Shown piece after piece: positions 9,801-28,815 of a stretch of DNA of 59,411 nucleotides (position 1 is the stretch's first letter; every line of letters begins with the position of its first letter). Origin of the DNA: Candidatus Buchananbacteria bacterium (GTDB lineage Bacteria; Patescibacteriota; Patescibacteriia; 2-01-FULL-39-33); assembly GCA_041666505.1 (NCBI GenBank), contig JBAYGU010000002.1, positions 1-59,411 of the forward strand. Reading direction: 5' to 3'. Below the pieces are notes generated by a model. That model was not told the origin of the DNA and ran no database searches. It saw nothing but the letters and a program-made list of their open reading frames with translations. The translations under genes were made by a program, and so were the position numbers.

Positions 9801-12800
9801 TTCGCCTTTGATCGATGGCAGATATGCCGTCAAGATCGGCAATTTTGAGATCTATAAATGCTCGAATGGCGCGGCAGCCACATCTTCTAATTTTGCTAGT
9901 CGAGCCACTAATTGCACTTTGCTGAATAAGACTGTTTCAGATAAATGGACCGCCAATGTTTTCAATTATAATCATAAGGATATAACACTGGCAGAATTGA
10001 CTGCCATGTCTGCCAGCCAGCTCGGTTCTTCTACTCCTGAGGGCATTGCAATTTATCCGCCGACCGGCACTGCCCTCGACAAGGATTCCTGGTATAAGAT
10101 AGCCATCAAGGGCGGAGAAAGCGGAGTCAGGGGAGCTGATTCGACTTTGAACGAATCGCCGGAAGGCGTATTGCAAGTGCCAAGCAAGAACGCTCAATTG
10201 GATAGCGGCGCGGGATATTGGTACTACTGGTATTTCAAGACCGGCTTAGGCGAATGCCCGATTGATCAAGTGGCCGTCTTGCCTCAAATCAAATTCATGC
10301 CGAAGATCGGCGAGACTCAACAGTATCTGGCCGATCCTTACGCCGCCAATTGCAATCATTTGAATCCGTACAGGTACAAATGGAAATGGGATTCTTTGGT
10401 CAATCCTTTCAGCGATCGCTGTTCGGCTGCTAATCCGACATCGGGCGATTATATCGCGACTATCTGTGAAAGCGGCGCGAGTTGTAATCCAGCCAATGAA
10501 CCTGATCTTTCAGTTTTCGGCAAAGCGGCCGTCAAGGCATTCGGGCAGAATGAGGGCAATACGAAAATCACGGCAGCCGCCGTGCAAGGCGAATGCAAGG
10601 ATTACAAATGGGGAGCGGGCGAATTGCAGGTCGGCTTCGGCGGTTTCAAGGTGTCGGAACACAGCAATTCCAATTGCTTGAATACTGATTTGTTAATTAA
10701 TTTTACCCAAGATGCCAAGAGTACCAGCTTATACAGCAATGTAAAATTATATCAGTGCGATGATGCGGCTTGCCAGACTGTTTCCGAATCGAATTTAAAA
10801 TCAATAGATATAAATAGCCCTCAGGGATTGCCTGGCAACCCCAATCCTTTATTTACCAATCAGGTTTATTTTACGCCTAGATCAAGTGATTTGCTCGAAC
10901 CGGGCAAAACATATCGTGTCGTAATCAAGGGGGGGCAAAGCGGCGTGGTTTCTGCATATAATACGAATCTGCTGAATTTGAATTACAGCCTTGTTCCGAA
11001 TAGTGGCGGAGAAGCTTGCGATCCGTCATTGTATCCGTGGCGACCGGGCGATCATCAGGCTGGATTGTGTTCCGCCACTTGTACTTTGACTGGTAATCTT
11101 TGCGGCACGACATCAGCGCAGTGCAATCCTGCGACCGACCCGCTTTGCGATGCCACTTGCCATAAAGCCGGCAATAGTAATACAATTGCCAGCTGCGGCA
11201 ACAGCAAGATAGAAGCGACTGAGAATTGCGATGACGGCAATACGAAAAACGGCGACGGCTGCAGTTCTCATTGCCTGCTTGAAGGCAGTAATAGCGCTTA
11301 TGGCTCGCTTTGCGGCAATGGCAAAGTGGAAAGAGGAGAAGCCTGCGATGACGGCAATATTAGCAATGGCGACAGTTGCTCCTCTAAATGCTTATTGGAG
11401 GCTGTTGATAATAATGTTCTGACTAACGTAGATTTTGAAAACGGCACGGTCGGCAGTGCGCCGCTGAATTGGTCTGTCGCTTCTCAATCTCATTCTAGTG
11501 TGGCGATTTCCGATACCTATGCCCGATCTGGAACTAAGAGCGTTAAGATAACCCAGGATGCCAATCAGCCTTATCCCGGCATTTGCAATCAGGTGATCTG
11601 CGCTGATTTCCCTGCCTGGCTTAAATGCACTTGGCTGCCAGCCACTTCCCAATGCCAATTCGATCAGCCCGATAATGCCCATCCGATGACTCCTAAGCCG
11701 ATTTATAATTCCGGCCAGACCTTTATTTGGGGTAATACCCATCGCGTAATGTGGGGTTCGTTGTATTATGATGTTTCCAATCTCGGTTTCAGGATCGGCC
11801 AGAAGTATATAGTCAAATTCAACTATAAGGGGGAGATTGATCCTCAAAGCCGCGTTGACGCCCAATTCAGCTTTAATCCGGGTTGGATTGCGCAATGCAA
11901 TCAGAAGCAAGCGCCGAATATAAAGCCCGATGGCAGCTGTCTTTACGGCAGTGATTGTTCAGACCAGCCAGGGTATTGCTGCGTCCAAGCACCTGTGCAA
12001 ACAAAATGTTACACTGGAGTCAATTTGCCGACGTTAAGTTCTGGGAATTTCGGTGTCGGTTCTTGGAAGGAATATCGGACAGAATTCACTTATACTTCTG
12101 AATTAGCCCAGTTATTCAATAGTGCGGGCAAATTAACCAATACCATTTCTTTAAGCATCCCTTATGCCAATATAACAAATGGTACGACGCTTTATATCGA
12201 TGATTTTTCCGTCGAGCGGGTCGGCTCTGATCCGAATGCGCCGATTTGCGGCAACAGTAAAATTGAAGCGGGGGAAGAATGCGATTCCGGTTCAGCCAAC
12301 GGTCCGGCTAATCGCTGTGGCAGCAATTGCTTGCTTAATGGTGCGCCAGCAGCCGCCGCTGGCGGAACCTGCGGCAATAAGAAATTGGAAAACGGCCAGT
12401 TCGACAGTTATTCTTGGACATTTGTTTTAACAGACAAGGCTCAAGTCTGCCAGGCGGTCAATTTCGAATTGAATCCTTGCCCTAACGGCGTCTGGTCCAT
12501 TTCCGCCGATTCGAATGTCAGTGATCTGTCTTTGAAATTCTATAAAGGCAGCAAGAGTGATACGGGCAGCTGCATTTCCGATGCGCAGATGAATAATTTG
12601 AGCTTCTGGCGCAGAATCTTCAATCAATTCGTAAGAATCATTAAATCATTCTTGGGCTTTAGATCCGTAATTGCCGCAGATTGGTGGTGCCCGATCAATG
12701 ATTACGCTGACGGTGCTTTCGATGCTGCTGCTCTGAGTTCGATGCGATTAGGTAATTATAAGAGAGATATAACTATTGACGGGGCTGCCCAAAATACTGA

Positions 12801-15800
12801 AGTCATCGCTTATACGGATGATTCCGACAACTATAAGATCAATTTCATCCGCAGCAGTAATTGGGATACGAATACCGAGTATAAAGCAGTCGCAATCTTC
12901 GATCGCAAGGGTGTTGCGGGAACTTCCACTGCGTCCGTAACGACATTCAGCCAATCTTGCAAAATGAAAAGCGTCAAGTTCGATGTCTGGCCGCGCGGCT
13001 TGGCAAAATCCGCTGATGGCTTCTTCTGCGCCTCTGATCCTTTGACAGGCAAGCCGGATGATTGCGGCCGTTCTTCCGAGGATCTTTATGATGACGATAT
13101 GTCAGCGCCATGGACGATGAATAAGGCAGACAATGGCTATAATTTGGACAGTGATGGCATGGCGCAAGCGGCGATCGGCAATAATTATAAAGGCGGCAAT
13201 CAGCATCTGTATCGAGTCTGGCCGTTGGATAGCAATAGGTATGTGTTGCGCGGAAACAATTTCTTAGCTTCATTGTCAAATATCGGTGCTGCAAAAACCA
13301 CATTGTCAGAAATTGGCAGTACTGATTATAAGGGTGATTTTTGGACCACCCCTGGCTTCAATCCCGGCCGCTCGTTCTTTGACGTTGATATCAGCGATAG
13401 TGATCCTTCCGCAAATAATGCCTTCGGAACATTGCCCATCTTCACGTACTTTTGCAATAATCCTTGGCCGGATGCGAAGAATTTCCCCTTCATCGATAGT
13501 TCCGACAACTGCAAGGCTGGAAGCGGTTCCTGTATTAACACCAATTTCGGCACGTATTATTGCCGCGATGCCGGAAAGGCTGATTCTACCGCTGACGATC
13601 TGCCCTCTATCGCCAATTATGACGCTTCCACTAAGACATTCGGCGCCGGAACAGGTGTAGTCATGGGGCTTGCCGGCAATAATAAGCTCAAGGAATTCTT
13701 GTTTGCCGGCAGACAGGCGACTGGCAGAGATGGTGCGGCTGTGTTTATTGCCGGTTCGTCAACGAGCGATATTAGTCCGGCTATTACAAATGATACTGAA
13801 GGAAGCTTGACTAGTTCGTGGGGAGCCAACGATGGCCAAGTGAAAGATTTTGTCTATCATTTGAATGTCGCAACACTTGGAAAATTTAATATAACGCTGG
13901 AAACATCTAATGATGCCAATGCCGATATTTTTGATCTCGGTTTCAATTCCAATTACGGCACATGCGTCCAAGGCACTGACCTGATCGGCAATAAACTGTA
14001 TCAGAATTTGCTCATTTCAGTTGATGGCGTCGGGACAAGCACGATAAAAGCATTAGCCAGCGCGCCGGAAAATCATCAATTCAACCGGTTAGTTCAGCCG
14101 TTAATTTTATCGGTTGGACAGCATACTATTACAATTAGATTTTTGAATGATTGTATCTGCGATGCAGTTTATGGCCAGTCATGCGCTTCCGGCCGGCTTG
14201 ATTCTAATTTAAAAATTTACGGCATATTACTGAATAACGCTGATCCGACCGGGGCGACTGACGCCATCGGCTTGAGGATGTATAACAATAATAACCATTA
14301 TTCTCCGGAATTATGGTACAAGTCGCTGTTTAATCCCGGATTGCAGGGCAATTTGGAGAAGTTATCTGTCGATGGCTATAGCGCAGCGCAAGAAGGCAGG
14401 ACGGTTTATGTCAATGCGGCTGATTTCAACGGCGGACAATCCATTGTTTATTCCGATATATATCTGATGTCGTATAATCAGGGCGCAAGCAAAGCGACGG
14501 AAAATATCTATGGACAGATGATCAGCAATTGGTTCTTCAATGCCGGCTCCAAGGCCGATGGCGGATTGGAATATGGCGCAGCTTTGGGTTATTGCAGCCA
14601 GGGGACAGAGACCGAAGACAATAAATGCTTTACTGATTTGGACTGCGTGAAACGTAATGCCGGTTTCTGCAGATCCGAAAAAGCCAAAATTACCAGGGAT
14701 ACCCAGAGGTTGTCGGACGTGCAGGATATTTATAATTCAATGTCCGGCTATCATGATAAGCTGCGCTGTTCTAATGACTTCAGCCGCGCTTGCAGCAATA
14801 ATGCCGGCTGTTTCGGCGGTGGCACTTGCGGACATTTCTATCCGAATCTGCGCGCCGGCACATACATCACCGGCAAGACATACAGCGCCTGGCCGAGTTG
14901 GCAAGATAATCTGGCCAAGGAATTTGGAGTTAAATTGCCCGTCGATCCAATTAATAAATTCTGGGTTTGGGATGGAACTAAATCAATCAATTGCTCCAAT
15001 CCATATAATTCTGTTACTTGCTGGGATGAGACTAGCAGGAGGATGGAATGTAATCTTGATTATAATTCCGCTGTTTATGCTTATTACGGCACTAAGTCCG
15101 GCACATCTACAAGGGTTTATGCCAAGGGTGAATATAATTATGGCACTGGCGAACTCGATCCGTTTAAGGCGGTATGGTCGCCGGCCTGGCAGGATGTTGT
15201 TAATCTTAACTATGATATTTTTGGCGGATATAACAGCTTAATTAGGGGTGGCCAATTCTGCGTCGCTGCCAGTGATACTTGCGGCGACGGATCATGCAAT
15301 AATTCTGAAACTTGTTCGACTTGCCCGATAGATTGCGGCTGCAGCGGCAAAAAATCCTGCAATCAGAATGCCGGAACATGGATCTGCAGCATCAAGCAGG
15401 CGCCGGTCGCGGCAGCTAAGAACTGCGGCAATGGCACATTTAGCGATTCCGGAGAAGATTGCGATTTCATCAATGGCGTGCCACTTGTCGGTATGAACGG
15501 ATTAAATCCGATTTATGTAACATCTACGGTCAATGGCCAGCTGGCTTGTACAGATCAATGTAAATTTCCCCCATGGTTTAATGATGTCAAGGTATATTAC
15601 AGGGATAATGATTATAAGTCTTGCGGCGACGGCTTGAGGACAGACCAGGAAGAATGCGATTGCGGTACAATAGACGGAGTTTTCGGTATAGGAAATCAAA
15701 AATATAATCCGTTCATTTGTAATTCGCTCAATAGTTCATTTGATTCTTCTGCTTCGATTTATGTCTCAGACCCCTCCGAGTTAAGGGATTTTACTTTTTG

Positions 15801-17616
15801 CGACACTACTTGCCAGCGCCATGACAAGGGCAATTATTCTTATTGCGGTGACAGCCACTGGGCAGATCCCGCTGTTGTCACGGGATCGGGGGAACAATGC
15901 GATTTAGGTTTTAATAATGGCAAAGCCGGATCAGGCTGCTTGGCAGATTGTAAATGCGATTTAGCCGATGGATATGCTTGCAGCGGCGGCGTGCCGTCAA
16001 AATGCGGAAATGGGACTCCTGATTCGGGCGAAGCCTGCGATTTGGGCCTAGGAATTAATGGAACTAATGGCTGTACTACGAGTTGCGCTTGTGCGGCGAC
16101 CTACGTTTGTCCGGGCGGCGTGCCGACTAAGTGTGGCAATGCCGTTGTTGATGCCGGCGAAGCCTGCGATTTGGGTCTGGGAATTAATGGAACCAATGGC
16201 TGTACTACGAGTTGCGCTTGCAAAGCCGGTTATGATTGCACTGGAGGAATTCCCCAGCTCATGTGTGGCAATGGGCATTCTGATCCGGGTGAAAATTGCG
16301 ATTTAGGCAATCCGGCAGTTATTCCCGGCGGGCAAAACGGCGTAACCGGCAGCGGCTGCAGCAGTATTTGCGATTTTACTTGCACGGCGGCCGGACCGCT
16401 CAGCGAGCAGAATATTATCCTCTCCAAAACTAATTTCACTGTTACTGGGCAGACTGCGAATTTTTCGACTCCGAATTGCCGGCTCGCAAAGGACATTGAA
16501 TCAGATATAACGATCAGCGGTAACGTCGGTTCGACAGAGATAGTGTTCGTTACTGACGTATCCGCAAGTATGGACATCGCAAGCCTAAAAATTGCTATCA
16601 CAGCGGCCATTGCCAGGATATTCGATGAATTGCCGTCCGCAAAAATCGGCTTGGTTCATTTTTCCGATGTTGCCGCAAATGATGTCGAGGCAGCTGTTTG
16701 TCCCAGATCGCTGTGCGATGATAGCCAGGAAGCTTACTTGGATAGCAGGATAAATTTATATGCAGGCTCCGGCGGAACCAATCCGGCATCGGGATTGCAA
16801 GTTGCATCTAATCTGTTCAACGGATCAACGGCTCAGAATAAAATTATCATTTTTATGAGCGACGGTTCGCCAACTAGTAATAGTGATGACAGTATAGTTG
16901 AAAACGTGACTACCTGGGCTAATGCCAATAAGAGCGCAAGCATCGCGATTTATTCCGCTGCCCTGACAATAGATTCTAATCTGAAAGGGGCGATGAATTA
17001 CTGGTCATCCAATAACGGCGCAGGCAATAGTCCCAATTCGGCGCCTAGTACCAAATGCAGCGGATTCGTGGGACCGCTTGGAGGGTGCAATTTCGGATAT
17101 TGGATGTTAGACGATGTGTATTCAGCTGACGGCTGCAATGGAAATAATTATTGCTTCAGCAATACTGATTTAGGAAGCCTTTTCACTTCGATCATCAGCC
17201 GGGTTTTGACGAATTTGCCTCAGTCAGGAATCCAAATCAGAGTCGATGGCACTAATACTAGTTTTAATAATGTCCTGCCGAATCCTGACGGCAGCCCCAA
17301 GACTTATAATGCCAAATCAATTAATTTGCCCGCGGTGGTCTGTTCTGGCGGTTCGCACACGATGCAAATCGACTATGTGGGAGATGGAAGCGTTTCTTTG
17401 GCAAACACGAAAATTTATTATTGTCCTGATTTTACACATTTCTTAGCACAGAGTAATGCTGATAGTCAATTCGCTGGCCCAAAAAATAAAGCGAATTCTC
17501 GTGTTGCCGGTGCTTTTGAAAAAACAACTAATGCCGCAGGCAGTTTGTGGCAGGAAATTTTAAGTATTTTCTGGCAATTGCTGCCTGGCAATATAATTAA
17601 ATCATTCGTTAAATAA
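6811..17616 (+). CDS. giant surface protein (3601 aa): pilin-like N-terminus, Ig/IPT-like, Cys-rich repeats, CBM-like, C-terminal vWA
   Basis: The N-terminal module is the same as in the 3535 ORF (MLYAGFTWMTAAGDPAKVDKAKKMIQQVVIGLIIIFSAFAI). About ten CGNxKxExGExCDDGNxxxGDGCSxxC-type cysteine repeats are present. A CBM-like block begins NVDFENGTVGSAPLNW. A vWA/MIDAS signature EIVFVTDVSASMD ... GGTNPASGL ... IIIFMSDGSPT lies near nt 16530-17220. Confidence 0.85.
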   Translation: MLQKNKKLILTSLLLIAAFLFLPAIVFAAGEVPSLGLFGGIFGEATLAQIIIRLIQFFLTVLGFIALVIMLYAGFTWMTAAGDPAKVDKAKKMIQQVVIGLIIIFSAFAITAFIYDRFGPPVGPPNGCVGPECPPPPSCVGPGCTPYWTNYPPEIAYINPALDVLSNTDQRTLAATSTSDDISNGAPGNYVSIVGRYFGNVPGKIFFVSRSDGSRIQAQLAPCARSWSSNLIIALVPAGLTLSGASHEADVATQDPLRNYDVIIEKLASDSSTLTSNIWGFQVNSIERPGICSMVPNHGVYPATTTLTGFKFPIVTPRNIVWSISPNFTSSTGSNWSSSTVVDVVPQDLAGRSLVSIFNGESYSNSFLFMISNGRAGSPCGYDTQSCREDITTCDAETDLACQFCSTDPTKPNYQENCNISRNCTCQPIVDESCEYNASSTLNSYRNCTVGGCLGQEACSNKSVWSKSCELPAGSTCVPFLGNSSNIAAFSWAFSALKNPAPGMSCKSEIWNDDTCDVNGCIDTNLACDPLATADHPACTCVPKDQLCTVGKIDTTTCPALGACKQVKACQDSGHWGECAVTPGCIPYPLVPASTIASYSWSFGANNGNGDVGPMVETSCDGSIDCSKNRLPSPSPWSDEWNAANHPELGIQNDKACLNAEIYARFTAAMSSATISSSTIRLYVSSTSGWIDQTNAKVEEVEPLLSEGEGDNADSFAIKLKPGIDLDPNSIYRVFLSNQIRDVVGRNLIDNPSGARNSLCAVGGSSPTAAAGVCWSFITRPSGPDAICQIGCVNCGPNKYFNRYYGQEKEHKVTPVSLDNACISLNNRDYAWDWSQEQQNLGGAVTNGWFLQKFFSATYSWLTNPFAADTIGIASQPANTVTTGYGTTTAYQESRWKTNADYKSWFGADDIDYFRIKGQVKATGNVGVCAVHNNFTDPIVIENQYCSKTSSSTNPQLNKQILQSPSPWKGQTDACTNAAIFALFSRNMFNSSLLELSSPLIDGRYAVKIGNFEIYKCSNGAAATSSNFASRATNCTLLNKTVSDKWTANVFNYNHKDITLAELTAMSASQLGSSTPEGIAIYPPTGTALDKDSWYKIAIKGGESGVRGADSTLNESPEGVLQVPSKNAQLDSGAGYWYYWYFKTGLGECPIDQVAVLPQIKFMPKIGETQQYLADPYAANCNHLNPYRYKWKWDSLVNPFSDRCSAANPTSGDYIATICESGASCNPANEPDLSVFGKAAVKAFGQNEGNTKITAAAVQGECKDYKWGAGELQVGFGGFKVSEHSNSNCLNTDLLINFTQDAKSTSLYSNVKLYQCDDAACQTVSESNLKSIDINSPQGLPGNPNPLFTNQVYFTPRSSDLLEPGKTYRVVIKGGQSGVVSAYNTNLLNLNYSLVPNSGGEACDPSLYPWRPGDHQAGLCSATCTLTGNLCGTTSAQCNPATDPLCDATCHKAGNSNTIASCGNSKIEATENCDDGNTKNGDGCSSHCLLEGSNSAYGSLCGNGKVERGEACDDGNISNGDSCSSKCLLEAVDNNVLTNVDFENGTVGSAPLNWSVASQSHSSVAISDTYARSGTKSVKITQDANQPYPGICNQVICADFPAWLKCTWLPATSQCQFDQPDNAHPMTPKPIYNSGQTFIWGNTHRVMWGSLYYDVSNLGFRIGQKYIVKFNYKGEIDPQSRVDAQFSFNPGWIAQCNQKQAPNIKPDGSCLYGSDCSDQPGYCCVQAPVQTKCYTGVNLPTLSSGNFGVGSWKEYRTEFTYTSELAQLFNSAGKLTNTISLSIPYANITNGTTLYIDDFSVERVGSDPNAPICGNSKIEAGEECDSGSANGPANRCGSNCLLNGAPAAAAGGTCGNKKLENGQFDSYSWTFVLTDKAQVCQAVNFELNPCPNGVWSISADSNVSDLSLKFYKGSKSDTGSCISDAQMNNLSFWRRIFNQFVRIIKSFLGFRSVIAADWWCPINDYADGAFDAAALSSMRLGNYKRDITIDGAAQNTEVIAYTDDSDNYKINFIRSSNWDTNTEYKAVAIFDRKGVAGTSTASVTTFSQSCKMKSVKFDVWPRGLAKSADGFFCASDPLTGKPDDCGRSSEDLYDDDMSAPWTMNKADNGYNLDSDGMAQAAIGNNYKGGNQHLYRVWPLDSNRYVLRGNNFLASLSNIGAAKTTLSEIGSTDYKGDFWTTPGFNPGRSFFDVDISDSDPSANNAFGTLPIFTYFCNNPWPDAKNFPFIDSSDNCKAGSGSCINTNFGTYYCRDAGKADSTADDLPSIANYDASTKTFGAGTGVVMGLAGNNKLKEFLFAGRQATGRDGAAVFIAGSSTSDISPAITNDTEGSLTSSWGANDGQVKDFVYHLNVATLGKFNITLETSNDANADIFDLGFNSNYGTCVQGTDLIGNKLYQNLLISVDGVGTSTIKALASAPENHQFNRLVQPLILSVGQHTITIRFLNDCICDAVYGQSCASGRLDSNLKIYGILLNNADPTGATDAIGLRMYNNNNHYSPELWYKSLFNPGLQGNLEKLSVDGYSAAQEGRTVYVNAADFNGGQSIVYSDIYLMSYNQGASKATENIYGQMISNWFFNAGSKADGGLEYGAALGYCSQGTETEDNKCFTDLDCVKRNAGFCRSEKAKITRDTQRLSDVQDIYNSMSGYHDKLRCSNDFSRACSNNAGCFGGGTCGHFYPNLRAGTYITGKTYSAWPSWQDNLAKEFGVKLPVDPINKFWVWDGTKSINCSNPYNSVTCWDETSRRMECNLDYNSAVYAYYGTKSGTSTRVYAKGEYNYGTGELDPFKAVWSPAWQDVVNLNYDIFGGYNSLIRGGQFCVAASDTCGDGSCNNSETCSTCPIDCGCSGKKSCNQNAGTWICSIKQAPVAAAKNCGNGTFSDSGEDCDFINGVPLVGMNGLNPIYVTSTVNGQLACTDQCKFPPWFNDVKVYYRDNDYKSCGDGLRTDQEECDCGTIDGVFGIGNQKYNPFICNSLNSSFDSSASIYVSDPSELRDFTFCDTTCQRHDKGNYSYCGDSHWADPAVVTGSGEQCDLGFNNGKAGSGCLADCKCDLADGYACSGGVPSKCGNGTPDSGEACDLGLGINGTNGCTTSCACAATYVCPGGVPTKCGNAVVDAGEACDLGLGINGTNGCTTSCACKAGYDCTGGIPQLMCGNGHSDPGENCDLGNPAVIPGGQNGVTGSGCSSICDFTCTAAGPLSEQNIILSKTNFTVTGQTANFSTPNCRLAKDIESDITISGNVGSTEIVFVTDVSASMDIASLKIAITAAIARIFDELPSAKIGLVHFSDVAANDVEAAVCPRSLCDDSQEAYLDSRINLYAGSGGTNPASGLQVASNLFNGSTAQNKIIIFMSDGSPTSNSDDSIVENVTTWANANKSASIAIYSAALTIDSNLKGAMNYWSSNNGAGNSPNSAPSTKCSGFVGPLGGCNFGYWMLDDVYSADGCNGNNYCFSNTDLGSLFTSIISRVLTNLPQSGIQIRVDGTNTSFNNVLPNPDGSPKTYNAKSINLPAVVCSGGSHTMQIDYVGDGSVSLANTKIYYCPDFTHFLAQSNADSQFAGPKNKANSRVAGAFEKTTNAAGSLWQEILSIFWQLLPGNIIKSFVK
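16027..16229 (+). repeat. 129-nt (43-aa) tandem duplication inside the giant gene
   Basis: ggcgaagcctgcgatttgggcctaggaattaatggaactaatggctgtactacgagttgcgcttg at 16027 recurs at 16156 with only a few substitutions. It encodes GEACDLGLGINGTNGCTTSCAC twice. Confidence 0.85.
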
Positions 17617-23780: not shown

Positions 23781-23912
23781 CAATCCGCTTCGGGGGTTGT
23801 CCCATTACTCGATTTTTCAGGAATTTTTCAAAAAACAGAAGCTAAAATTAGCTAAAAATTTTTTGCAAAATCACCAAAAACGGAGTTTTGGGACAGCCCC
23901 TTCGGCGGATTG
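23781..23912. repeat. 24-nt inverted repeats enclosing 84 nt, ending in a T7 run (likely ftsZ terminator or tiny MITE)
   Basis: caatccgcttcgggggttgtccca (23781-23804) pairs with tgggacagccccttcggcggattg (23889-23912), followed by ttttttt. Each arm also contains a C-TTCG-G loop. Confidence 0.55.
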
Positions 23913-23978
23913 TTTTTTTGAAATTATATCTTATCCACACCAGGCGATTTAATTCAAAAACCCCTGTAAAAATCCAGC

Positions 23979-24007
23979 TTGTCAGAGGGCGTGAGTGCGG
24001 GTATAAT
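23979..24007 (+). promoter_or_regulatory. sigma70-type promoter upstream of nrdD
   Basis: TTGTCA (23979-23984), a 17-nt spacer, then TATAAT (24002-24007). Confidence 0.6.
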
Positions 24008-24077
24008 TATATAACTAAGGAGGGTGCTTCCGTACCCGGATCGGCCGGTTACAAATTAAAATTGATCATAAACCAAC

Positions 24078-27000
24078 ATGGAATCCCAGATTAAACAGAT
24101 TAGGAAACGCAACGGAGAAATAGCTGATTTCGACCAATCCAAGGTCACTTCGGCCGTTTACAAGTCACTTATGGCTGTCGGCCGCGATGATGAAGCCTTG
24201 GCTCTTAGGCTGTCTGATCAGGTGGTGCAGATCTTGAATAACAAATTCCATTTCCGTTCCATTCCTGCCATCGAAGAGGTGCAGGATATCGTGGAAGAGG
24301 TTCTGATCAAGGAGGATTTGGTCAAAGCGGCCAAAGCCTACATTATTTACCGCGAACAGCATGCCCGGCTGCGCGAATTGAAGCAACTATTAGACTCTAA
24401 TGACATTATTGAGGGCTATTTGAAGAAAATGGACTGGCGCGTCAAGGAGAATGCCAACATGGCGTATTCTTTGCAGGGCTTGAATAACCACGTCGCCTCG
24501 GCTGTTTCTGCCCACTATTGGCTCAATAAGATCTATCCGCCGGAAATCCGTAACGCCCATGTCGACGGCACGATGCATATCCATGATCTGCAGATTCTGG
24601 CCGTCTATTGCTGCGGTTGGGATTTGCAGACTCTGATCCGGGTCGGCTTTTGCGGCGTCGAAGGCAAAGTGCAATCCAAGCCGCCAAAGAGATTCCGTTC
24701 AGCTCTGGGCCAGGTGGTGAATTTCTTTTATACATTACAGGGCGAGGCTGCCGGCGCGCAGGCTTTTGCTAGTTTCGATACTCTCTTAGCTCCCTTCATC
24801 CGCTATGAAGGTCTGGATTACAAGCAAGTCAAGCAGGGCATCCAAGAATTCATCTTCAATATGAATGTGCCGACCCGGGTCGGCTTCCAATGCATGTCCC
24901 AGGATACGGAAATCCTGACTGCTCAAGGTTGGAAGGGTTACAAGGGTGTTAAGGAAAAAGATATTATCGCCACTTTTAATACTGATTCTGGCATTATGGA
25001 ATATCTGCCAGTCAAGCGCGTTTTTGCCCGCGAGTATAAGGGTAAAATGTATAATTTAAAGAATCGCATCAGCGATCAGCTGATTTCGCCGGAACATCGC
25101 GTTGTCAGGAGACAATTTAATGGTGGCGGGTATGTTTTGGAGCCGATTGAAAAGGTGTTGAATTTAAAATCGCCGTTTATTGTGCCGGTGGGGTCTTTGG
25201 GCAATGTTTCCGGAGATAATTCCTTAAGCGATGCTTGGGTTAAATTTTTGGCTTGGACGATTGCCGAAGGCACGCTGGATAAGGGAGAAAGAGGCGCCGG
25301 TAGAGTCAGTATTTATCAGTCTAAAGAGGTAAAGCCGAGCGAATATGAAGAAATCAAGGCCTTATGCGAGGAATTAGGCTTGGCTTATACGGAAAGGACA
25401 CAGACCGGCTTGGGGTCGGATTGTCAGGTTTTGCGTTTTGATTCGCCGTCAACTAAGAAAATTCTGAAGTTTTTCGGCGGCGATAAATCCGCCGGCATTA
25501 AATTTATTCCGAAAGAAATCTTATCGGCGGATACGGAAACTGCCAGATTATTTTTGGAAACATATATCAAGGGCGACGGACATGACGAGTGCAAAATCAC
25601 CACGACTTTGGAAGCGATTAAAGATGATTTATTGATGGTGGCGGCTAATGCCGGTTTTGGAGCGACAGTTTTAATCAGGAAACCGGATAATAATTTATCG
25701 AAAAAAGACAGATATATAATTCGCTTAATCAAACATGTCGATACCTATATTAATGAAGTCAAACAGGTTGATTATAATGGAATAATCTGGTGTCCGAATA
25801 CTGATAACGAAACAGTAATCGCTCGCAGGAATGGCAAGATTTTTATTACCGGTAATACGCCATTTACAAATTTAACCTTCGATTTGACTTGCCCTTCGAC
25901 CATGGCTAATGAGCCGGTTTTATTGGGCGGCATACCGCAGCGCGAGACTTACAAGGAATTCCAGATGGAGATGAATCTGATTAATCGCGCTTTTGCCGAA
26001 GTCATGATGGAAGGCGATGCCAAGGGCCGGGTTTTCACTTTCCCCATTCCGACGTATAATATAAGCAAGGACTTCGATTGGGACAATGAGGTCTTAGATC
26101 CGATTTGGGAGATGACGGCCAAGTACGGCATTCCTTATTTCGCTAATTTCGTCAATTCCGACATGAAGGCGGAGGATGCCCGTTCCATGTGCTGCCGCTT
26201 AAGGCTGGATAACCGCGTATTAAGGAAGCGTGGCGGCGGTCTTTTCGCCGCTAATCCATTGACCGGCTCAATCGGCGTCGTTACCATTAATTTGCCCCGT
26301 ATCGGTTATCTGTCCAAAGGCAATGAGCAGGCGTTCTTTTCCCGCTTATCGCAGATTATGGAGCTGTCCCGCCAATCGCTTAAATTAAAGCGCAACGTCT
26401 TGGAGAATTTCACCGACATGGGCCTGTATCCTTACGCTCGATTCTATTTGTCGGAAATTAAGGAGCGTTTCGGCCAGTATTGGAGGAATCATTTCAATAC
26501 CATCGGCATCAACGGCATGAACGAGACGATAATGAATTTCTTGGGCAAGCCCTTGAGTTCTAAGGAAGGCGGAGAATTTGCTGAGAAGATTATGGATTTC
26601 ATGCTGTCGCGCCTGGTGCAATATCAGGAAGAAGATGATCAGATGTATAATCTGGAAGCCACGCCGGCGGAAGGCGCTACTTATCGTTTTGCCAAGAAAG
26701 ACAAGGAGCTTTATCCCGATATCATCGTGGCCAATGAGGAGCAGTATCGCGACAACAGCGCGGCGCCGTATTACACCAATTCGTCGCATTTCCCTGTTAA
26801 TTATTCGACTGATATCTTCGATGTTTTGGAGAAGCAGGACGGCCTGCAGATAAAATATACCGGCGGGACAGTGGTGCATATATTCTTGGGTGAGAAGATG
26901 CCCGATATTGCTAGCACGAAGAATCTGGTCAAGAAAGTCGCCGAGAGTTTCCGCCTGCCTTATTACACCTTGACCCCGACTTTTTCCGTCTGTCCCAAGC

Positions 27001-27092
27001 ACGGCTATCTGGCGGGGGAGCATCGCTTCTGCCCGGTCTGCGATGATGAGATCGGCTACATCAGGGAGCAGAAAGAAAAATTACCACTTTAA
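24078..27092 (+). CDS. nrdD: anaerobic ribonucleoside-triphosphate reductase (class III), intein-containing, lacking the glycyl-radical tail
   Basis: It has an N-terminal ATP-cone (IRKRNGEIADFDQSKVTSAVYKS) and NrdD core blocks (TRVGFQ / TPFTNLTFD, MCCRLRLD). The C-terminal Zn ribbon is CPKH...CPVC. The ORF stops 17 codons after CPVC, without an RVxGY motif. Confidence 0.9.
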   Translation: MESQIKQIRKRNGEIADFDQSKVTSAVYKSLMAVGRDDEALALRLSDQVVQILNNKFHFRSIPAIEEVQDIVEEVLIKEDLVKAAKAYIIYREQHARLRELKQLLDSNDIIEGYLKKMDWRVKENANMAYSLQGLNNHVASAVSAHYWLNKIYPPEIRNAHVDGTMHIHDLQILAVYCCGWDLQTLIRVGFCGVEGKVQSKPPKRFRSALGQVVNFFYTLQGEAAGAQAFASFDTLLAPFIRYEGLDYKQVKQGIQEFIFNMNVPTRVGFQCMSQDTEILTAQGWKGYKGVKEKDIIATFNTDSGIMEYLPVKRVFAREYKGKMYNLKNRISDQLISPEHRVVRRQFNGGGYVLEPIEKVLNLKSPFIVPVGSLGNVSGDNSLSDAWVKFLAWTIAEGTLDKGERGAGRVSIYQSKEVKPSEYEEIKALCEELGLAYTERTQTGLGSDCQVLRFDSPSTKKILKFFGGDKSAGIKFIPKEILSADTETARLFLETYIKGDGHDECKITTTLEAIKDDLLMVAANAGFGATVLIRKPDNNLSKKDRYIIRLIKHVDTYINEVKQVDYNGIIWCPNTDNETVIARRNGKIFITGNTPFTNLTFDLTCPSTMANEPVLLGGIPQRETYKEFQMEMNLINRAFAEVMMEGDAKGRVFTFPIPTYNISKDFDWDNEVLDPIWEMTAKYGIPYFANFVNSDMKAEDARSMCCRLRLDNRVLRKRGGGLFAANPLTGSIGVVTINLPRIGYLSKGNEQAFFSRLSQIMELSRQSLKLKRNVLENFTDMGLYPYARFYLSEIKERFGQYWRNHFNTIGINGMNETIMNFLGKPLSSKEGGEFAEKIMDFMLSRLVQYQEEDDQMYNLEATPAEGATYRFAKKDKELYPDIIVANEEQYRDNSAAPYYTNSSHFPVNYSTDIFDVLEKQDGLQIKYTGGTVVHIFLGEKMPDIASTKNLVKKVAESFRLPYYTLTPTFSVCPKHGYLAGEHRFCPVCDDEIGYIREQKEKLPL
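24891..25856 (+). mobile_element. intein with LAGLIDADG homing-endonuclease domain (322 aa)
   Basis: It interrupts the conserved NrdD block VGFQ|TPFTNLTFD. It starts CMSQDTEILT and has a block B-like ISPEHRVV. LAGLIDADG-like motifs FLAWTIAEGTLDKG and FLETYIKGDGHDE are present. It ends FITGN, followed by the Thr +1 residue. Confidence 0.85.
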
Positions 27093-27100
27093 AAATACAT

Positions 27101-27403
27101 ATGTCTGGAATATTTGAATATAATCCCGGGTGTATCTCACAAGGAGAAATGAGGCCGGGAGGCCATTGTCTGAGTCCTGTTAATGATTATTATACAATTT
27201 TTGGAACTGAATTGGGCCATTTGTCGACCCATTTATTTATTTCATTGGCGATTGGATTGATATTGATCGCAGCATTGTTTCTTTTGAGAAAAAAAAGAGT
27301 AATCAAAAATTCATTTTATTGGATAATAATCATTCCAACCATAATAATAATTTTATTATTTTTCCTATTGGCTTATTATTTCCCGGTGTATGTTACTTAT
27401 TAA
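27101..27403 (+). CDS. small two-TM membrane protein inserted between the nrdD body and tail
   Basis: 100-aa ORF in a visibly AT-rich 346-nt segment. It uses the acatATG start context common in this window and has two hydrophobic helices. Confidence 0.5.
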   Translation: MSGIFEYNPGCISQGEMRPGGHCLSPVNDYYTIFGTELGHLSTHLFISLAIGLILIAALFLLRKKRVIKNSFYWIIIIPTIIIILLFFLLAYYFPVYVTY

Positions 27404-27438
27404 TTAATCTAAATATTTAATAAATAAATTGTAACCAT

Positions 27439-27609
27439 ATGGAAGGTGACAATAAAGAATCGTTGAGGCAGCCGTGCGAAGTTTATTCCCGCGTCGTGGG
27501 CTATATCCGCCCCGTCGATCAATGGAATCCGGGCAAACAATCTGAGTTCAGCGACCGCTCGACTTTCGAGTCGGCCTGCTCGTGCAGCAACGAAGAACCG
27601 ATGATGTGA
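27439..27609 (+). CDS. stand-alone NrdD glycyl-radical C-terminal peptide (56 aa)
   Basis: It is too short for the ORF track. MEGDNKESLRQPCEVYSRVVGYIRPVDQWNPGKQSEFSDRSTF carries the class III RNR glycyl-radical signature (SRVxGY...WNxGKxxEFxxR). It has a ccatATG start context and an in-frame stop at 27421 upstream. Confidence 0.75.
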   Translation: MEGDNKESLRQPCEVYSRVVGYIRPVDQWNPGKQSEFSDRSTFESACSCSNEEPMM

Positions 27610-27645
27610 TTCAGTAGATTTGTGTCGTAATATCATGATTCAGAT

Positions 27646-28335
27646 ATGAAAATCGGCGGCTTACAGCCCGTAACACTCTTGGATTATCCGCAAAAATTGG
27701 CAGCGATCGTATTCACCGCAGGGTGCAATATGCGCTGCCCTTTTTGCTATAATTCCAAGCTGGTTTTGCCAGAATTACTCAGTGATGCTAATCTGTATAA
27801 GGAAGACGAGGTGATCGAGTTCTTGAAAAAACGCAAGAAATACCTTGACGGCCTAGTGATTACCGGCGGCGAACCGCTGCTGCAGGAAGACTTGGCTGAT
27901 TTTTTAAGAAAAATGAAGGCTGTCGGCTATGAGATAAAATTGGACACCAATGGCTTACAATCTGAAAAATTAAAAGATCTTTTGGAAGAAAAACTTGTTG
28001 ATTATATCGCCATGGATATCAAAGGGCCGCTAGAGAGTTATGAGAAATTCTCCGGTGTATCAGCTGGACAGGTTGCGAATAGCATAAAAATAATCATGAA
28101 ATCCGGTCTGCCTTATGAATTCCGTTCGACTGTCGTCAAAGGGCTGCATTCAAAAGAAGATATAACTGCTATGGCCAAGACAATCAAGGGCGCTAAGCTG
28201 TATTATCTGCAGAATTACATGGCGAGCACTCCTCTGGCCGGAGATAAATTCAAAGGCAAGGAATTTTTTCTGAAGGACATGGAAGACATGCGGCAGATCG
28301 CCGGGCAATATGTTAAGAAGTGCTTAATCAGGTGA
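27646..28335 (+). CDS. nrdG: anaerobic RNR activating radical-SAM protein
   Basis: Contains the CNMRCPFCYN cluster motif and GLVITGGEPLLQ. Confidence 0.9.
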   Translation: MKIGGLQPVTLLDYPQKLAAIVFTAGCNMRCPFCYNSKLVLPELLSDANLYKEDEVIEFLKKRKKYLDGLVITGGEPLLQEDLADFLRKMKAVGYEIKLDTNGLQSEKLKDLLEEKLVDYIAMDIKGPLESYEKFSGVSAGQVANSIKIIMKSGLPYEFRSTVVKGLHSKEDITAMAKTIKGAKLYYLQNYMASTPLAGDKFKGKEFFLKDMEDMRQIAGQYVKKCLIR

Positions 28336-28385
28336 TTTGACTTAATATTCGCATTATTTTATAATAAAGCCATAAAGATAAATTT

Positions 28386-28604
28386 ATGCGGAAAATTGAC
28401 TTAAAATCAGTCGTTTGGAAAGAAGGCGATTATTATGTTTCTCAGTGTTTAGAGGTTGATGTCGCCAGCTATGGTAAAACCAAAAAAGAAGCTCTGGCAA
28501 TGCTGCAAGAAGCTCTGGAGTTGTATTTCGAAGATATTCCAATTCCCCAAAAATCGGAAGTGAAGAATCCTTTTCTCACTTCCGTTACCCTTCAACATGC
28601 CTAA
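28386..28604 (+). CDS. hicB: HicB-like antitoxin
   Basis: 72 aa with a YYVSQCLEVDVASYGKTKKEALAMLQEALELYFE fold signature. It overlaps the next ORF by 8 nt (ATGCCTAA). Confidence 0.75.
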   Translation: MRKIDLKSVVWKEGDYYVSQCLEVDVASYGKTKKEALAMLQEALELYFEDIPIPQKSEVKNPFLTSVTLQHA

Positions 28605-28815
28605 GCCATTTTCACTTCGACTCGTACTAAAAGTCCTGAAGGAAAAGGGCTTTATTTTTGTTTCACAGAATGGATCGCATGCGAAGTATAGGAAAGAAAC
28701 AGAATTGATATTGACAGTCATCATACCGATACATGGCAAGGAAATAAAATTCGGCACATTCAAGTCGATTTTGCGCCAAGCAAACTTGACGGAAGATGAT
28801 TTTAAACGAGATTAA
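28597..28815 (+). CDS. hicA: HicA-like mRNA interferase toxin
   Basis: 72 aa; LKEKGFIFVSQNGSHAKYRKE ... IPIHGKEIKFGTFKSILRQANLTEDDF is typical of HicA/YcfA. Confidence 0.8.
   Translation: MPKPFSLRLVLKVLKEKGFIFVSQNGSHAKYRKETELILTVIIPIHGKEIKFGTFKSILRQANLTEDDFKRD

What the first reader, a model, noticed from the sequence alone, without database searches (positions are those of the whole stretch)
27093..27609. Class III RNR split: the glycyl-radical tail of NrdD is a stand-alone 56-aa ORF, separated from the body by an AT-rich insert with a 100-aa membrane ORF
The nrdD ORF (24078-27092) ends ...VCPKHGYLAGEHRFCPVCDDEIGYIREQKEKLPL*. That is just after the C-terminal Zn ribbon, and it lacks the glycyl-radical motif that normally follows within about 10-20 residues.

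The motif appears 346 nt downstream in a different frame: MEGDNKESLRQPCEVYSRVVGYIRPVDQWNPGKQSEFSDRSTF... (27439-27609). This ORF is too short for the ORF track and is followed directly by nrdG.

The intervening 27093-27438 is markedly AT-rich. It encodes a plausible two-TM 100-aa protein in the third frame. Both small ORFs use the (a/c)catATG start context seen on many bona fide genes here.

The enzyme body and its radical-bearing loop would therefore be separate polypeptides. This recalls the stand-alone glycyl-radical spare-part protein GrcA/YfiD of pyruvate formate-lyase, which I do not know to be described for NrdD. Alternatives are a self-splicing intron (phage T4 nrdD has a group I intron), a recent inactivating insertion, or an assembly artefact.
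Basis: partly seen in the sequence, partly recalled or inferred. Interest (0 to 1): 0.72.

Follow-up and report, generated by a model that had tools for sequence, protein, structure and literature searches.

The report
Two-piece anaerobic ribonucleotide reductase
In this bacterium, and in many other Patescibacteria, the anaerobic enzyme that makes DNA building blocks is encoded in two pieces, with its radical-carrying tip as a separate 56-residue protein, an arrangement I could not find described in the literature.

Summary
The nrdD body (24078-27092) stops just after the Zn ribbon. The glycyl-radical motif sits in a separate 56-aa ORF (27439-27609) in another frame, followed by nrdG. Profile matches of body and tail abut exactly, so nothing is missing or duplicated.

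It is not an intron, a pseudogene or an artefact.
- 57 of 80 related species-representative loci have the same split.
- Their gaps are only about 4-144 nt, in all three relative frames.
- Clear GGAGG ribosome-binding sites precede the tail ATG in lineages that use them.
- dN/dS of the tail is about 0.02-0.04.
- The position of the body's stop codon is conserved.
- Rfam finds no intron.
- Of the 150 best representative clusters matching the tail, 138 are tail-only small proteins.

The AT-rich insert is secondary. A 96%-identical relative has the split with a 129-nt spacer, no 100-aa ORF and no intein. The 100-aa two-TM ORF is a strain-specific orphan.

The best reading is a functional two-subunit class III RNR with a separately translated, possibly exchangeable, glycyl-radical peptide. 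No paper describing this was found; a 2026 review says spare-part proteins are known only for formate lyases. Some relatives with full-length NrdD also carry a stand-alone Zn-ribbon plus glycyl-radical ORF.

The parts
24078..27092 (+). nrdD body: ATP-cone, catalytic barrel and Zn ribbon, without the glycyl-radical loop. 1004 aa including an intein; 682 aa after splicing.
   Evidence: Pfam NRDD 588 bits plus ATP-cone. NF006126 995.7 bits, matching profile positions up to 653 of 684. The extein length of 682 aa equals that of the intein-free relatives.
24096..24365 (+). ATP-cone domain of the body (aa 7-96)
   Evidence: PF03477, E 9.7e-18
24891..25856 (+). Intein, 322 aa (Cys1...Asn322, +1 Thr), with LAGLIDADG-like motifs. 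It is inserted in VGFQ|TPFTN.
   Evidence: Removing it restores VGFQTPFTNLT, as in intein-free relatives. Only a weak LAGLIDADG_3 hit, E 0.13. It is absent from the 96%-identical P0270/L088.
26991..27041 (+). Zn ribbon CPKH-x9-CPVC, the last conserved element of the body
   Evidence: Read from the sequence. T. maritima NrdD binds Zn through CxxxHx6CxxC (PMC4493059).
27042..27092 (+). Conserved C-terminal extension of the body, DDEIGYIREQKEKLPL, plus the stop codon
   Evidence: The last 13 codons (IGYIREQKEKLPL) show 0 nonsynonymous and 4 synonymous differences against L005. Relatives have TAA, TAG or TGA at the same position. The motif CPxCDxExGY is shared by nearly all split bodies.
27093..27438 (+). 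Intergenic spacer, 29% GC, enlarged in this strain
   Evidence: Relatives have spacers of 105 nt (L005), 129 nt (L088), 126 nt (L008) and 67 nt (L009). The right end aaattgtaaccatATG is shared with L005. Rfam finds no intron.
27101..27403 (+). Orphan 100-aa ORF with two predicted TM helices and an RKKR loop. It is a strain-specific passenger, not part of the enzyme.
   Evidence: No homologue other than itself among 5.8 billion proteins. The chance of such an ORF in shuffles is 1.5e-4 to 7.5e-4. No Pfam or NCBIfam family match.
27439..27609 (+). Stand-alone glycyl-radical subunit (56 aa). It carries the motif RQPCEVYSRVVGYIRPVDQWNPGKQSEFSDR, and the presumed radical glycine is Gly21.
   Evidence: NRDD profile positions 532-562, E 8.6e-10. 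314 homologues, of which the best 120 are all 44-64 aa. dN/dS 0.02-0.04.
27499..27501 (+). Codon of Gly21 in RVVGY, the inferred radical site
   Evidence: Invariant in the alignment of 34 tails. It corresponds to the glycyl radical site of NrdD (Gly621 in T. maritima, PMC4493059). The assignment is by homology, not by experiment.
27646..28335 (+). nrdG, radical-SAM activase (CNMRCPFC cluster motif)
   Evidence: TIGR02495 NrdG2, 216.8 bits against a cut-off of 131. Radical_SAM and Fer4_12.

Best explanation
This is a functional class III ribonucleotide reductase encoded in two pieces.

- The large subunit is the body: ATP-cone, catalytic barrel and Zn ribbon, matured by excision of a 322-aa intein.
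- The small subunit is a separately initiated 56-aa peptide. It supplies the glycyl-radical loop that in ordinary NrdD is the covalent C-terminus.
- The fission lies inside an extended linker between the Zn ribbon and the Gly loop. It is old and is shared by many Patescibacteria.

Inferred mechanism:
1. The peptide docks its RVVGY loop into the barrel.
2. NrdG, encoded immediately downstream, abstracts the Gly21 hydrogen, either on the free peptide or on the complex.
3. The radical is passed to the active-site cysteine, as in one-piece NrdD.
4. Oxygen cleaves glycyl-radical proteins at the radical glycine. In this arrangement only a 6-kDa peptide would be lost, and it could be replaced without remaking the 682-1333-aa, intein-containing body.

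The 346-nt AT-rich region is the normal intergenic spacer, enlarged in this strain by an orphan 100-aa membrane-protein ORF that is not needed for the split.

Shown: the gene structure, its conservation, purifying selection and independent start signals. Inferred: assembly in trans, activation by NrdG, and any repair advantage.
For: - Body and tail abut exactly on the NrdD profiles.
- The order body, then short tail ORF, then nrdG recurs in independent assemblies: Dojkabacteria with an 18-19-nt gap, and other Patescibacteria with gaps of 59, 39 and 105 nt.
- Among 80 species-representative loci, 57 are split. Gaps are about 4-144 nt and the relative frames are 0, 1 and 2.
- GGAGG lies 5-9 nt before the tail ATG in lineages that use Shine-Dalgarno sites, for example L039, L051, L067, L074, L081 and L084.
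- The tail N-termini are conserved (MEGDNK.. or MTKKEK..), and 16 columns are invariant.
- dN/dS of the tail is 0.02-0.04, with synonymous sites near saturation. The last 13 residues of the body's extension are conserved with only synonymous changes against L005, and different stop codons sit at the same position.
- Of the best 150 representative clusters, 138 are tail-only small proteins and 130 of those start with Met.
- Most of the 120 closest bodies cover 91-92% of a body+tail query, which means they end at the same place.
- Fused relatives with the same long linker show where the fission happened.
- The glycine is buried in NrdD and the C-terminal domain must move for activation (PMC4493059), so a detachable loop is mechanistically plausible.
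Against: - There is no experimental evidence that the two polypeptides assemble or that the enzyme is active.
- The structure prediction of a fused construct was too poor to say anything: mean pLDDT 33 and 60, with the tail below 50.
- In the window's own lineage there is no recognisable Shine-Dalgarno site before the tail ATG, although most genes of this window also lack one.
- The 100-aa ORF between body and tail could reduce expression of the tail in this strain.
- The repair or exchange advantage is speculation.
- I could not check whether these genomes hold another RNR elsewhere.
Confidence: 0.85

Rival explanations
1. A self-splicing group I or group II intron occupies 27093-27438, or a slightly different interval, and its excision restores a one-piece nrdD mRNA.
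For: The insert is AT-rich and sits exactly at the junction.
Against: A permissive Rfam scan (E up to 10) of 23800-28500 finds no intron family. Relatives without the insert remain split, with gaps as short as 4-19 nt that cannot hold an intron, and in all three frames. A 96%-identical relative has a 129-nt spacer and is still split. The body's stop-codon position and the tail's Met are conserved.
Confidence: 0.02
2. nrdD is a pseudogene, recently inactivated by insertion of foreign DNA carrying the 100-aa ORF, or the split is an assembly artefact.
For: The insert and the 100-aa ORF are unique to this strain. The composition of the insert differs from its flanks.
Against: The split predates the insert and is present in dozens of species from unrelated studies. 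Both pieces are under strong purifying selection. The identical body is recorded on three contigs, and the two not shown were collapsed as having mostly the same neighbouring proteins.
Confidence: 0.02
3. The two ORFs are rejoined into one polypeptide during or after translation. Possible routes are a programmed frameshift, stop-codon readthrough, ribosomal bypassing as in T4 gene 60, or protein trans-splicing by a split intein.
For: Gaps are very short in some lineages (4-20 nt). The locus does carry a classical intein elsewhere.
Against: Gap length varies from about 4 to 346 nt and its sequence is not conserved. The relative frame takes all three values. GGAGG sites and conserved Met starts point to independent initiation. 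The flanking extensions, 16 aa on the body and about 10-12 aa on the tail, are far too short and lack the Hint blocks needed for split-intein halves (sequence; general knowledge of inteins).
Confidence: 0.04
4. The tail is only an accessory spare part, strictly like GrcA. In this view the body is either inactive or uses another radical source.
For: Relatives with full-length NrdD carry an extra stand-alone Zn-ribbon plus Gly-motif ORF.
Against: The split bodies have no RVxGY loop at all, so there is nothing to 'spare'. The tail is the only source of the radical glycine in the locus, and its presence correlates one-to-one with truncated bodies.
Confidence: 0.05

Closest known systems
Canonical one-piece class III RNR (NrdD with NrdG; for example T4, E. 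coli, and T. maritima NrdD with the SCCR motif)
   Same: ATP-cone, NRDD barrel, Zn ribbon, RVVGY glycyl-radical loop, SMCCRLRL motif, and an adjacent NrdG2-type activase.
   Different: The glycyl-radical loop is a separate, independently translated 44-64-aa protein. The body ends 16 residues after the Zn ribbon.
GrcA/YfiD (and T4 Y06I), the autonomous glycyl-radical 'spare part' of pyruvate formate-lyase
   Same: A small stand-alone protein that carries a glycyl-radical loop, is presumably activated by the cognate activase, and inserts into a large barrel protein (PMC8683613).
   Different: GrcA is PFL-type, about 127 aa, and rescues a full-length enzyme after oxygen cleavage. Here the peptide is NrdD-type, about 50 aa, and obligatory. 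A 2026 review states that spare-part proteins are known only for formate lyases (PMC13450708).
Split class II RNR NrdJa/NrdJb (Pseudomonas aeruginosa) and the 'genes-in-pieces' class I NrdA of phage Aeh1
   Same: A ribonucleotide reductase catalytic chain encoded as two adjacent genes that must assemble (for NrdJa/b; Aeh1 from my own knowledge, not checked here).
   Different: Those splits separate a C-terminal redox/Zn-finger domain (NrdJb) or cut the barrel next to a homing-endonuclease gene. Neither separates the radical-harbouring element, and neither is class III.
Class I RNR alpha/beta architecture
   Same: Conceptually, the stable radical is stored on a separate small subunit and delivered to the catalytic subunit.
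   Different: The subunits are not homologous. Class I beta is a ferritin-like metalloprotein with long-range radical transfer, whereas here the small subunit is a fragment of the catalytic chain itself.

Membership tests
Class III RNR catalytic subunit NrdD (PF13597 / TIGR02487 / NF006126) | NRDD catalytic barrel domain above the curated cut-off | tested here: met
   Pfam NRDD 588 bits against a cut-off of 26.2. NF006126 995.7 bits against 548.
Class III RNR catalytic subunit NrdD (PF13597 / TIGR02487 / NF006126) | C-terminal Zn-binding motif ahead of the radical loop | tested here: met
   CPKH-x9-CPVC at 26991-27041. It is comparable to CxxxHx6CxxC in T. maritima NrdD. Metal binding was not tested.
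Class III RNR catalytic subunit NrdD (PF13597 / TIGR02487 / NF006126) | Glycyl-radical loop RVxGY on the same polypeptide | tested here: not met
   The body stops at profile position 533 of 562 (Pfam) and 549 of 581 (TIGR02487). The loop is on the 56-aa ORF.
Class III RNR catalytic subunit NrdD (PF13597 / TIGR02487 / NF006126) | Cognate radical-SAM activase NrdG encoded nearby | tested here: met
   TIGR02495 NrdG2, 216.8 bits against 131. The gene is at 27646-28335.
GrcA/YfiD autonomous glycyl-radical cofactor | Small stand-alone protein with a glycyl-radical motif | tested here: met
   56-aa ORF with RVVGY. 138 of the best 150 representative clusters are tail-only small proteins.
GrcA/YfiD autonomous glycyl-radical cofactor | Homology to the PFL C-terminal Gly_radical domain | tested here: not met
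   The only Pfam and NCBIfam hits are to NrdD C-termini.
GrcA/YfiD autonomous glycyl-radical cofactor | Coexists with a full-length enzyme that has its own radical domain (a spare, not the sole copy) | tested here: not met
   The adjacent body lacks the loop. The full-length-plus-spare arrangement does occur in relatives: L048, L040, L043, L047, L066 and L090.
GrcA/YfiD autonomous glycyl-radical cofactor | Activated by the cognate activase and able to restore activity | not testable with these tools
   Needs anaerobic biochemistry and EPR.
Group I / group II self-splicing intron | Match to intron covariance models | tested here: not met
   No intron family at E up to 10 in 23800-28500.
Group I / group II self-splicing intron | Relatives without the insertion have an uninterrupted gene | tested here: not met
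   Relatives without the insert (L088, L005, L004, L007, L001...) are still split.
Split intein (protein trans-splicing) | Hint-domain halves at the C-terminus of piece 1 and the N-terminus of piece 2 | tested here: not met
   The extensions are 16 aa on the body and about 10-12 aa on the tail, with no intein blocks. Pfam finds no intein domain there.

The most novel reading that the evidence does not exclude
Patescibacteria, and some DPANN-labelled MAGs, run class III RNR as a true two-component enzyme with an exchangeable 5-7-kDa glycyl-radical subunit. NrdG would activate the subunit off the enzyme, and it would be swapped after oxygen damage. The stand-alone Zn-ribbon plus glycyl-radical ORFs next to full-length nrdD in relatives (including the cultured Minisyncoccus archaeiphilus) would belong to the same picture. 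Together they would be the first spare-part or radical-carrier system for a glycyl-radical enzyme outside the formate lyases.
Probability: 0.35. Interest if true: 0.8.

Novelty: new variant of a known kind. Interest (0 to 1): 0.66.

Why it matters
All characterised glycyl-radical enzymes carry the radical glycine on the catalytic chain. The only known detachable radical domains are the PFL spare parts GrcA and Y06I.

A natural, widespread NrdD whose radical loop is a separate 50-aa peptide would matter in several ways:
- It would give a minimal substrate for studying how the activase recognises the loop and installs the radical.
- It would show that the radical loop can dock and work in trans in an RNR.
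- It would offer a built-in cheap repair route after oxygen exposure, in organisms with tiny genomes that live at oxic/anoxic boundaries.

There are also practical consequences.
- Annotation pipelines give the fragments the same name as the full-length enzyme, so metabolic reconstructions may miscount them.
- RNR phylogenies may treat them as truncated sequences.
- The related spare-part ORF occurs in a cultured species, which makes the idea directly testable.

Tried and rejected
- Rfam scan for introns: nothing.
- Search for homologues of the 100-aa ORF: only itself. blastn and tblastn of the insert against the window and all loci found no source. Repeat search found no convincing terminal repeats or target-site duplication.
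- PDB sequence search with the tail alone: no meaningful hit.
- AlphaFold2 of a fused, intein-free body+tail:
  - The single-sequence run was useless, with pLDDT 33.
  - MAFFT aligned the tails to the body's linker GY whenever split bodies were included.
  - The only correctly aligned set (6 fused relatives plus 33 tails) gave a mean pLDDT of 60 with the tail below 50. No docking statement is made.
- Hypothesis that the body's IGYIRE is a decayed duplicate of the radical motif: rejected, because fused relatives contain both elements in one chain.
- NJ tree to test for a single origin of the split: the split forms fall in several clades with the unsplit forms nested among them. The tree is short and unsupported by any resampling, so the number of fission or fusion events is left open.
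- Promoter and terminator scan: only weak consensus matches inside the spacer. Nothing is claimed from it.
- Literature searches for a described split NrdD or an NrdD spare part found none. The library holds only open-access papers.

Full report
**What is in the window**

The ORF 24078-27092 encodes a 1004-aa NrdD that ends ...CPKHGYLAGEHRFCPVCDDEIGYIREQKEKLPL*.
- Pfam NRDD covers profile positions 156-533 of 562 on body residues 593-992. An ATP-cone lies at residues 7-96.
- The 56-aa ORF 27439-27609 (MEGDNKESLRQPCEVYSRVVGYIRPVDQWNPGKQSEFSDRSTFESACSCSNEEPMM) matches profile positions 532-562.
- On TIGR02487 the body ends at position 549 and the tail starts at position 550 of 581.
- So the two ORFs are exactly complementary, with nothing missing or duplicated.
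- nrdG follows at 27646-28335 (TIGR02495, 216.8 bits against a cut-off of 131).
- The 346-nt spacer has 29% GC. It holds a 100-aa ORF (27101-27403) with two hydrophobic segments.
- The body also contains a 322-aa intein (24891-25856; Cys1...Asn, +1 Thr). Removing it gives a 682-aa extein with the junction VGFQ|TPFTN, which matches intein-free relatives.

**The split is real, old and widespread**

- The tail peptide has 314 homologues at E<=1e-3 in the 5.8-billion-protein collection. The best 120 are all 44-64 aa. Where named, they come from Patescibacteria, Parcubacteria or Dojkabacteria MAGs.
- In the unindexed search of 50%-identity representatives there are 3178 hits. Of the best 150 clusters, 138 are tail-only small proteins (130 start with Met), 7 are a longer Zn-ribbon plus Gly type, and only 1 is a full-length NrdD.
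- Genomic contexts show the same order, body then tail then nrdG:
  - Dojkabacteria: a 1333-aa body with inteins, an 18-19-nt gap and a 46-aa tail.
  - Other Patescibacteria: gaps of 59 nt, 39 nt and 105 nt.
- A scan of GTDB species representatives returned 80 loci. My ORF analysis classed 57 as split and 23 as unsplit.
  - Gaps are roughly 4-144 nt. Two apparent overlaps depend on the choice of start codon.
  - The tail is in relative frame 0, 1 or 2 in different species.
- Record titles include Buchananbacteria, Dojkabacteria/WS6, CPR2, Veblenbacteria and Paceibacterota. A few bins are labelled Woesearchaeota, Micrarchaeota or 'archaeon'. The labels were not verified.

**Independent translation and selection**

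- In lineages that use Shine-Dalgarno sites, a GGAGG lies 5-9 nt upstream of the tail ATG. Examples are L039 gggaggagcctaagATG, L051 ataggaggctataATG, L067, L074, L081 and L084.
- The window's lineage has AT-rich leaders without a Shine-Dalgarno site, as do most genes of the window.
- Tail N-termini are conserved (MEG[DA]NK... or MTKKEK...), and 16 columns of the tail are invariant in 34 diverse sequences.
- Against close relatives the tail has dN/dS of 0.02-0.04, with synonymous sites close to saturation.
- The last 13 residues of the body's extension (IGYIREQKEKLPL) show 0 nonsynonymous and 4 synonymous differences against L005.
- The stop codon is TAA, TAG or TGA at the same position in different relatives.
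- Most of the 120 closest bodies cover 91-92% of a body+tail query, which means they end at the same point.

**What this excludes**

- An intron. No Rfam hit appears at E up to 10. Gaps of 4-19 nt cannot hold an intron. Relatives without the insert are still split.
- A pseudogene or recent inactivation. Both pieces are under purifying selection.
- An assembly artefact. The split is seen in dozens of independent assemblies. The identical body is on record on three contigs, two of them collapsed as having mostly the same neighbouring proteins.
- Frameshifting, readthrough or bypassing. Gap length, gap sequence and frame all vary, and the tail has its own start signals.
- Trans-splicing. The extensions of 16 aa and about 10-12 aa are too short and lack intein blocks.

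**What the AT-rich insert is**

- The closest relative is L088. Its body, P0270, is 96% identical, 682 aa long and has no intein. It carries the split with a 129-nt spacer and no 100-aa ORF.
- L005 and L006 (tail 89% identical) have a 105-nt AT-rich spacer. Its right end, aaattgtaaccatATGgaaggtgac, matches the window.
- The 100-aa ORF has no homologue other than itself, no family match and no similar DNA elsewhere in the window or the loci. No clear terminal repeats flank it.
- An ATG ORF of at least 100 aa nonetheless arises in only 0.015-0.075% of shuffles of the spacer. It is therefore probably a real, or recently real, small two-TM membrane-protein gene.
- It is a strain-specific passenger in an existing spacer, not the cause of the split. 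Its function is unknown.

**Where the fission happened**

- Unsplit close relatives have a short linker, for example CPKCAIEQPCEVYSRVVGY.
- Nearly all split bodies end CPxCDxExGY plus 6-20 residues.
- A few fused proteins contain that same long linker followed by the radical loop in one chain. P0368 reads CPKCDEEMGYVKGLVPDESRRRCEVFSRIVGY, and P0357, P0362 and P0386 are similar.
- So the 'echo' IGYIRE is a conserved linker element of this NrdD subfamily, and the break lies within the extended linker.
- Whether the fused long-linker forms are ancestral or are re-fusions is open. A neighbour-joining tree of the last 230 body residues puts the split forms in several clades with the unsplit forms nested among them, but it has no support values.

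**How it most likely works (inferred)**

- In NrdD the radical glycine is buried at the tip of a C-terminal loop inside the barrel. The C-terminal domain must move for the activase to reach it, and the Zn domain was proposed to contact NrdG (PMC4493059).
- Here the Zn domain stays on the body and the loop is a free peptide. I infer that NrdG activates Gly21 of the peptide, free or bound, and that the peptide occupies the barrel as in the one-piece enzyme.
- Oxygen cleaves glycyl-radical proteins at the radical glycine (PMC13450708 and PMC8683613). A separate loop would then confine the damage to a 6-kDa peptide.
- That is the logic of GrcA/YfiD, but here the peptide is obligatory and NrdD-type. 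The repair advantage is speculation.
- Structure prediction could not test docking.

**Novelty**

- I found no paper describing a split NrdD or an NrdD-type spare part.
- A June 2026 review states that formate lyases are the only GRE class with identified spare-part proteins.
- The 2021 YfiD paper only speculates that others may exist.
- Split class II RNR (NrdJa/b) is known.
- NCBIfam has no model for the small protein. It hits only the last ~30 positions of full-length NrdD models, far below their cut-offs. Public annotations nevertheless name these 44-64-aa ORFs 'anaerobic ribonucleoside-triphosphate reductase'.
- The literature library covers open-access papers only, so an earlier mention cannot be ruled out.

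**Side finding**

- Five unsplit loci, including the complete genome of the cultured Minisyncoccus archaeiphilus PMX.108, encode a ~90-aa ORF between a full-length nrdD and nrdG. The ORF has its own CxxC...CxxC ribbon followed by ...EVYSRVVGYIRPVSQWNEGKQ.
- The same arrangement is seen on another contig (L090).
- Seven such clusters are among the best 150 representatives.
- This is the closer analogue of GrcA for class III RNR.

**Verdict**

- The insert and its 100-aa ORF are a secondary, strain-specific feature.
- It is a new variant of a known kind: a two-piece class III RNR.
- Interest is moderately high.

Noticed in passing
L048:5155-5433 (Minisyncoccus archaeiphilus PMX.108, NZ_AP038758.1); also L040, L043, L047, L066 and L090:229-534: Genomes with a full-length, unsplit nrdD carry an extra ~90-100-aa ORF between nrdD and nrdG. 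It has its own CxxC...CxxC Zn ribbon followed by the NrdD glycyl-radical motif. This looks like a GrcA-type spare part for class III RNR. Seven such clusters are among the best 150 representatives (P0126, P0140, P0169, P0185, P0213, P0227, P0231).
   Followed up: partly
window 24891-25856: A 322-aa intein (Cys1...Asn322, +1 Thr, LAGLIDADG-like motifs) interrupts nrdD at VGFQ|TPFTN. It is absent from a 96%-identical relative (P0270/L088, 682 aa). Several other relatives have bodies of the same length (1003-1006 aa). Dojkabacteria bodies reach 1333 aa with intein-family hits.
   Followed up: partly
window 27574-27606 (tail residues 46-56) and the tails of relatives: Many tails end with a CxC motif a few residues after the conserved DRxTF: CSCS, CNCS, CGCS, CGCG, CSCNC. 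Some unsplit Gastranaerophilales NrdDs have it too (DCGCK, ECSCK). It recalls the C-terminal redox cysteine pairs of class I and II RNRs. Dojkabacteria tails lack it.
   Followed up: no
P0357, P0362, P0368, P0386 (proteins): These are one-piece NrdDs that contain the long linker typical of split bodies (CPKCDEEMGYVKG...) fused to the radical loop. They are either the pre-fission state or re-fusions.
   Followed up: partly
L027, L062, L083: Split nrdD loci occur on contigs of bins labelled Woesearchaeota, Micrarchaeota or 'archaeon'. If the binning is right, this could mean transfer between CPR bacteria and DPANN archaea. The labels were not checked.
   Followed up: no
L068:2393-4660 and L068:4660-6930 (approximately): Two tandem, near-identical copies of the body+tail unit lie on one contig. 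This is either a tandem duplication or an assembly repeat.
   Followed up: no
window 28386-28604 and 28597-28815: Two overlapping 72-aa ORFs lie just downstream of nrdG. By eye they look like a HicB-like antitoxin and a HicA-like toxin. The equivalent gene in L005 had only a weak DUF7387 hit.
   Followed up: no
window 6811-17616 (+): A 3601-aa ORF, the largest in the window. It was not examined.
   Followed up: no
window 27439-27450 and the tails of relatives: The tail ORF of the window's clade almost always begins ATGGAAGG(N)GA (Met-Glu-Gly). The third position of the Gly codon varies, so the conservation is at the protein level. The role of the conserved MEG N-terminus is unknown.
   Followed up: no
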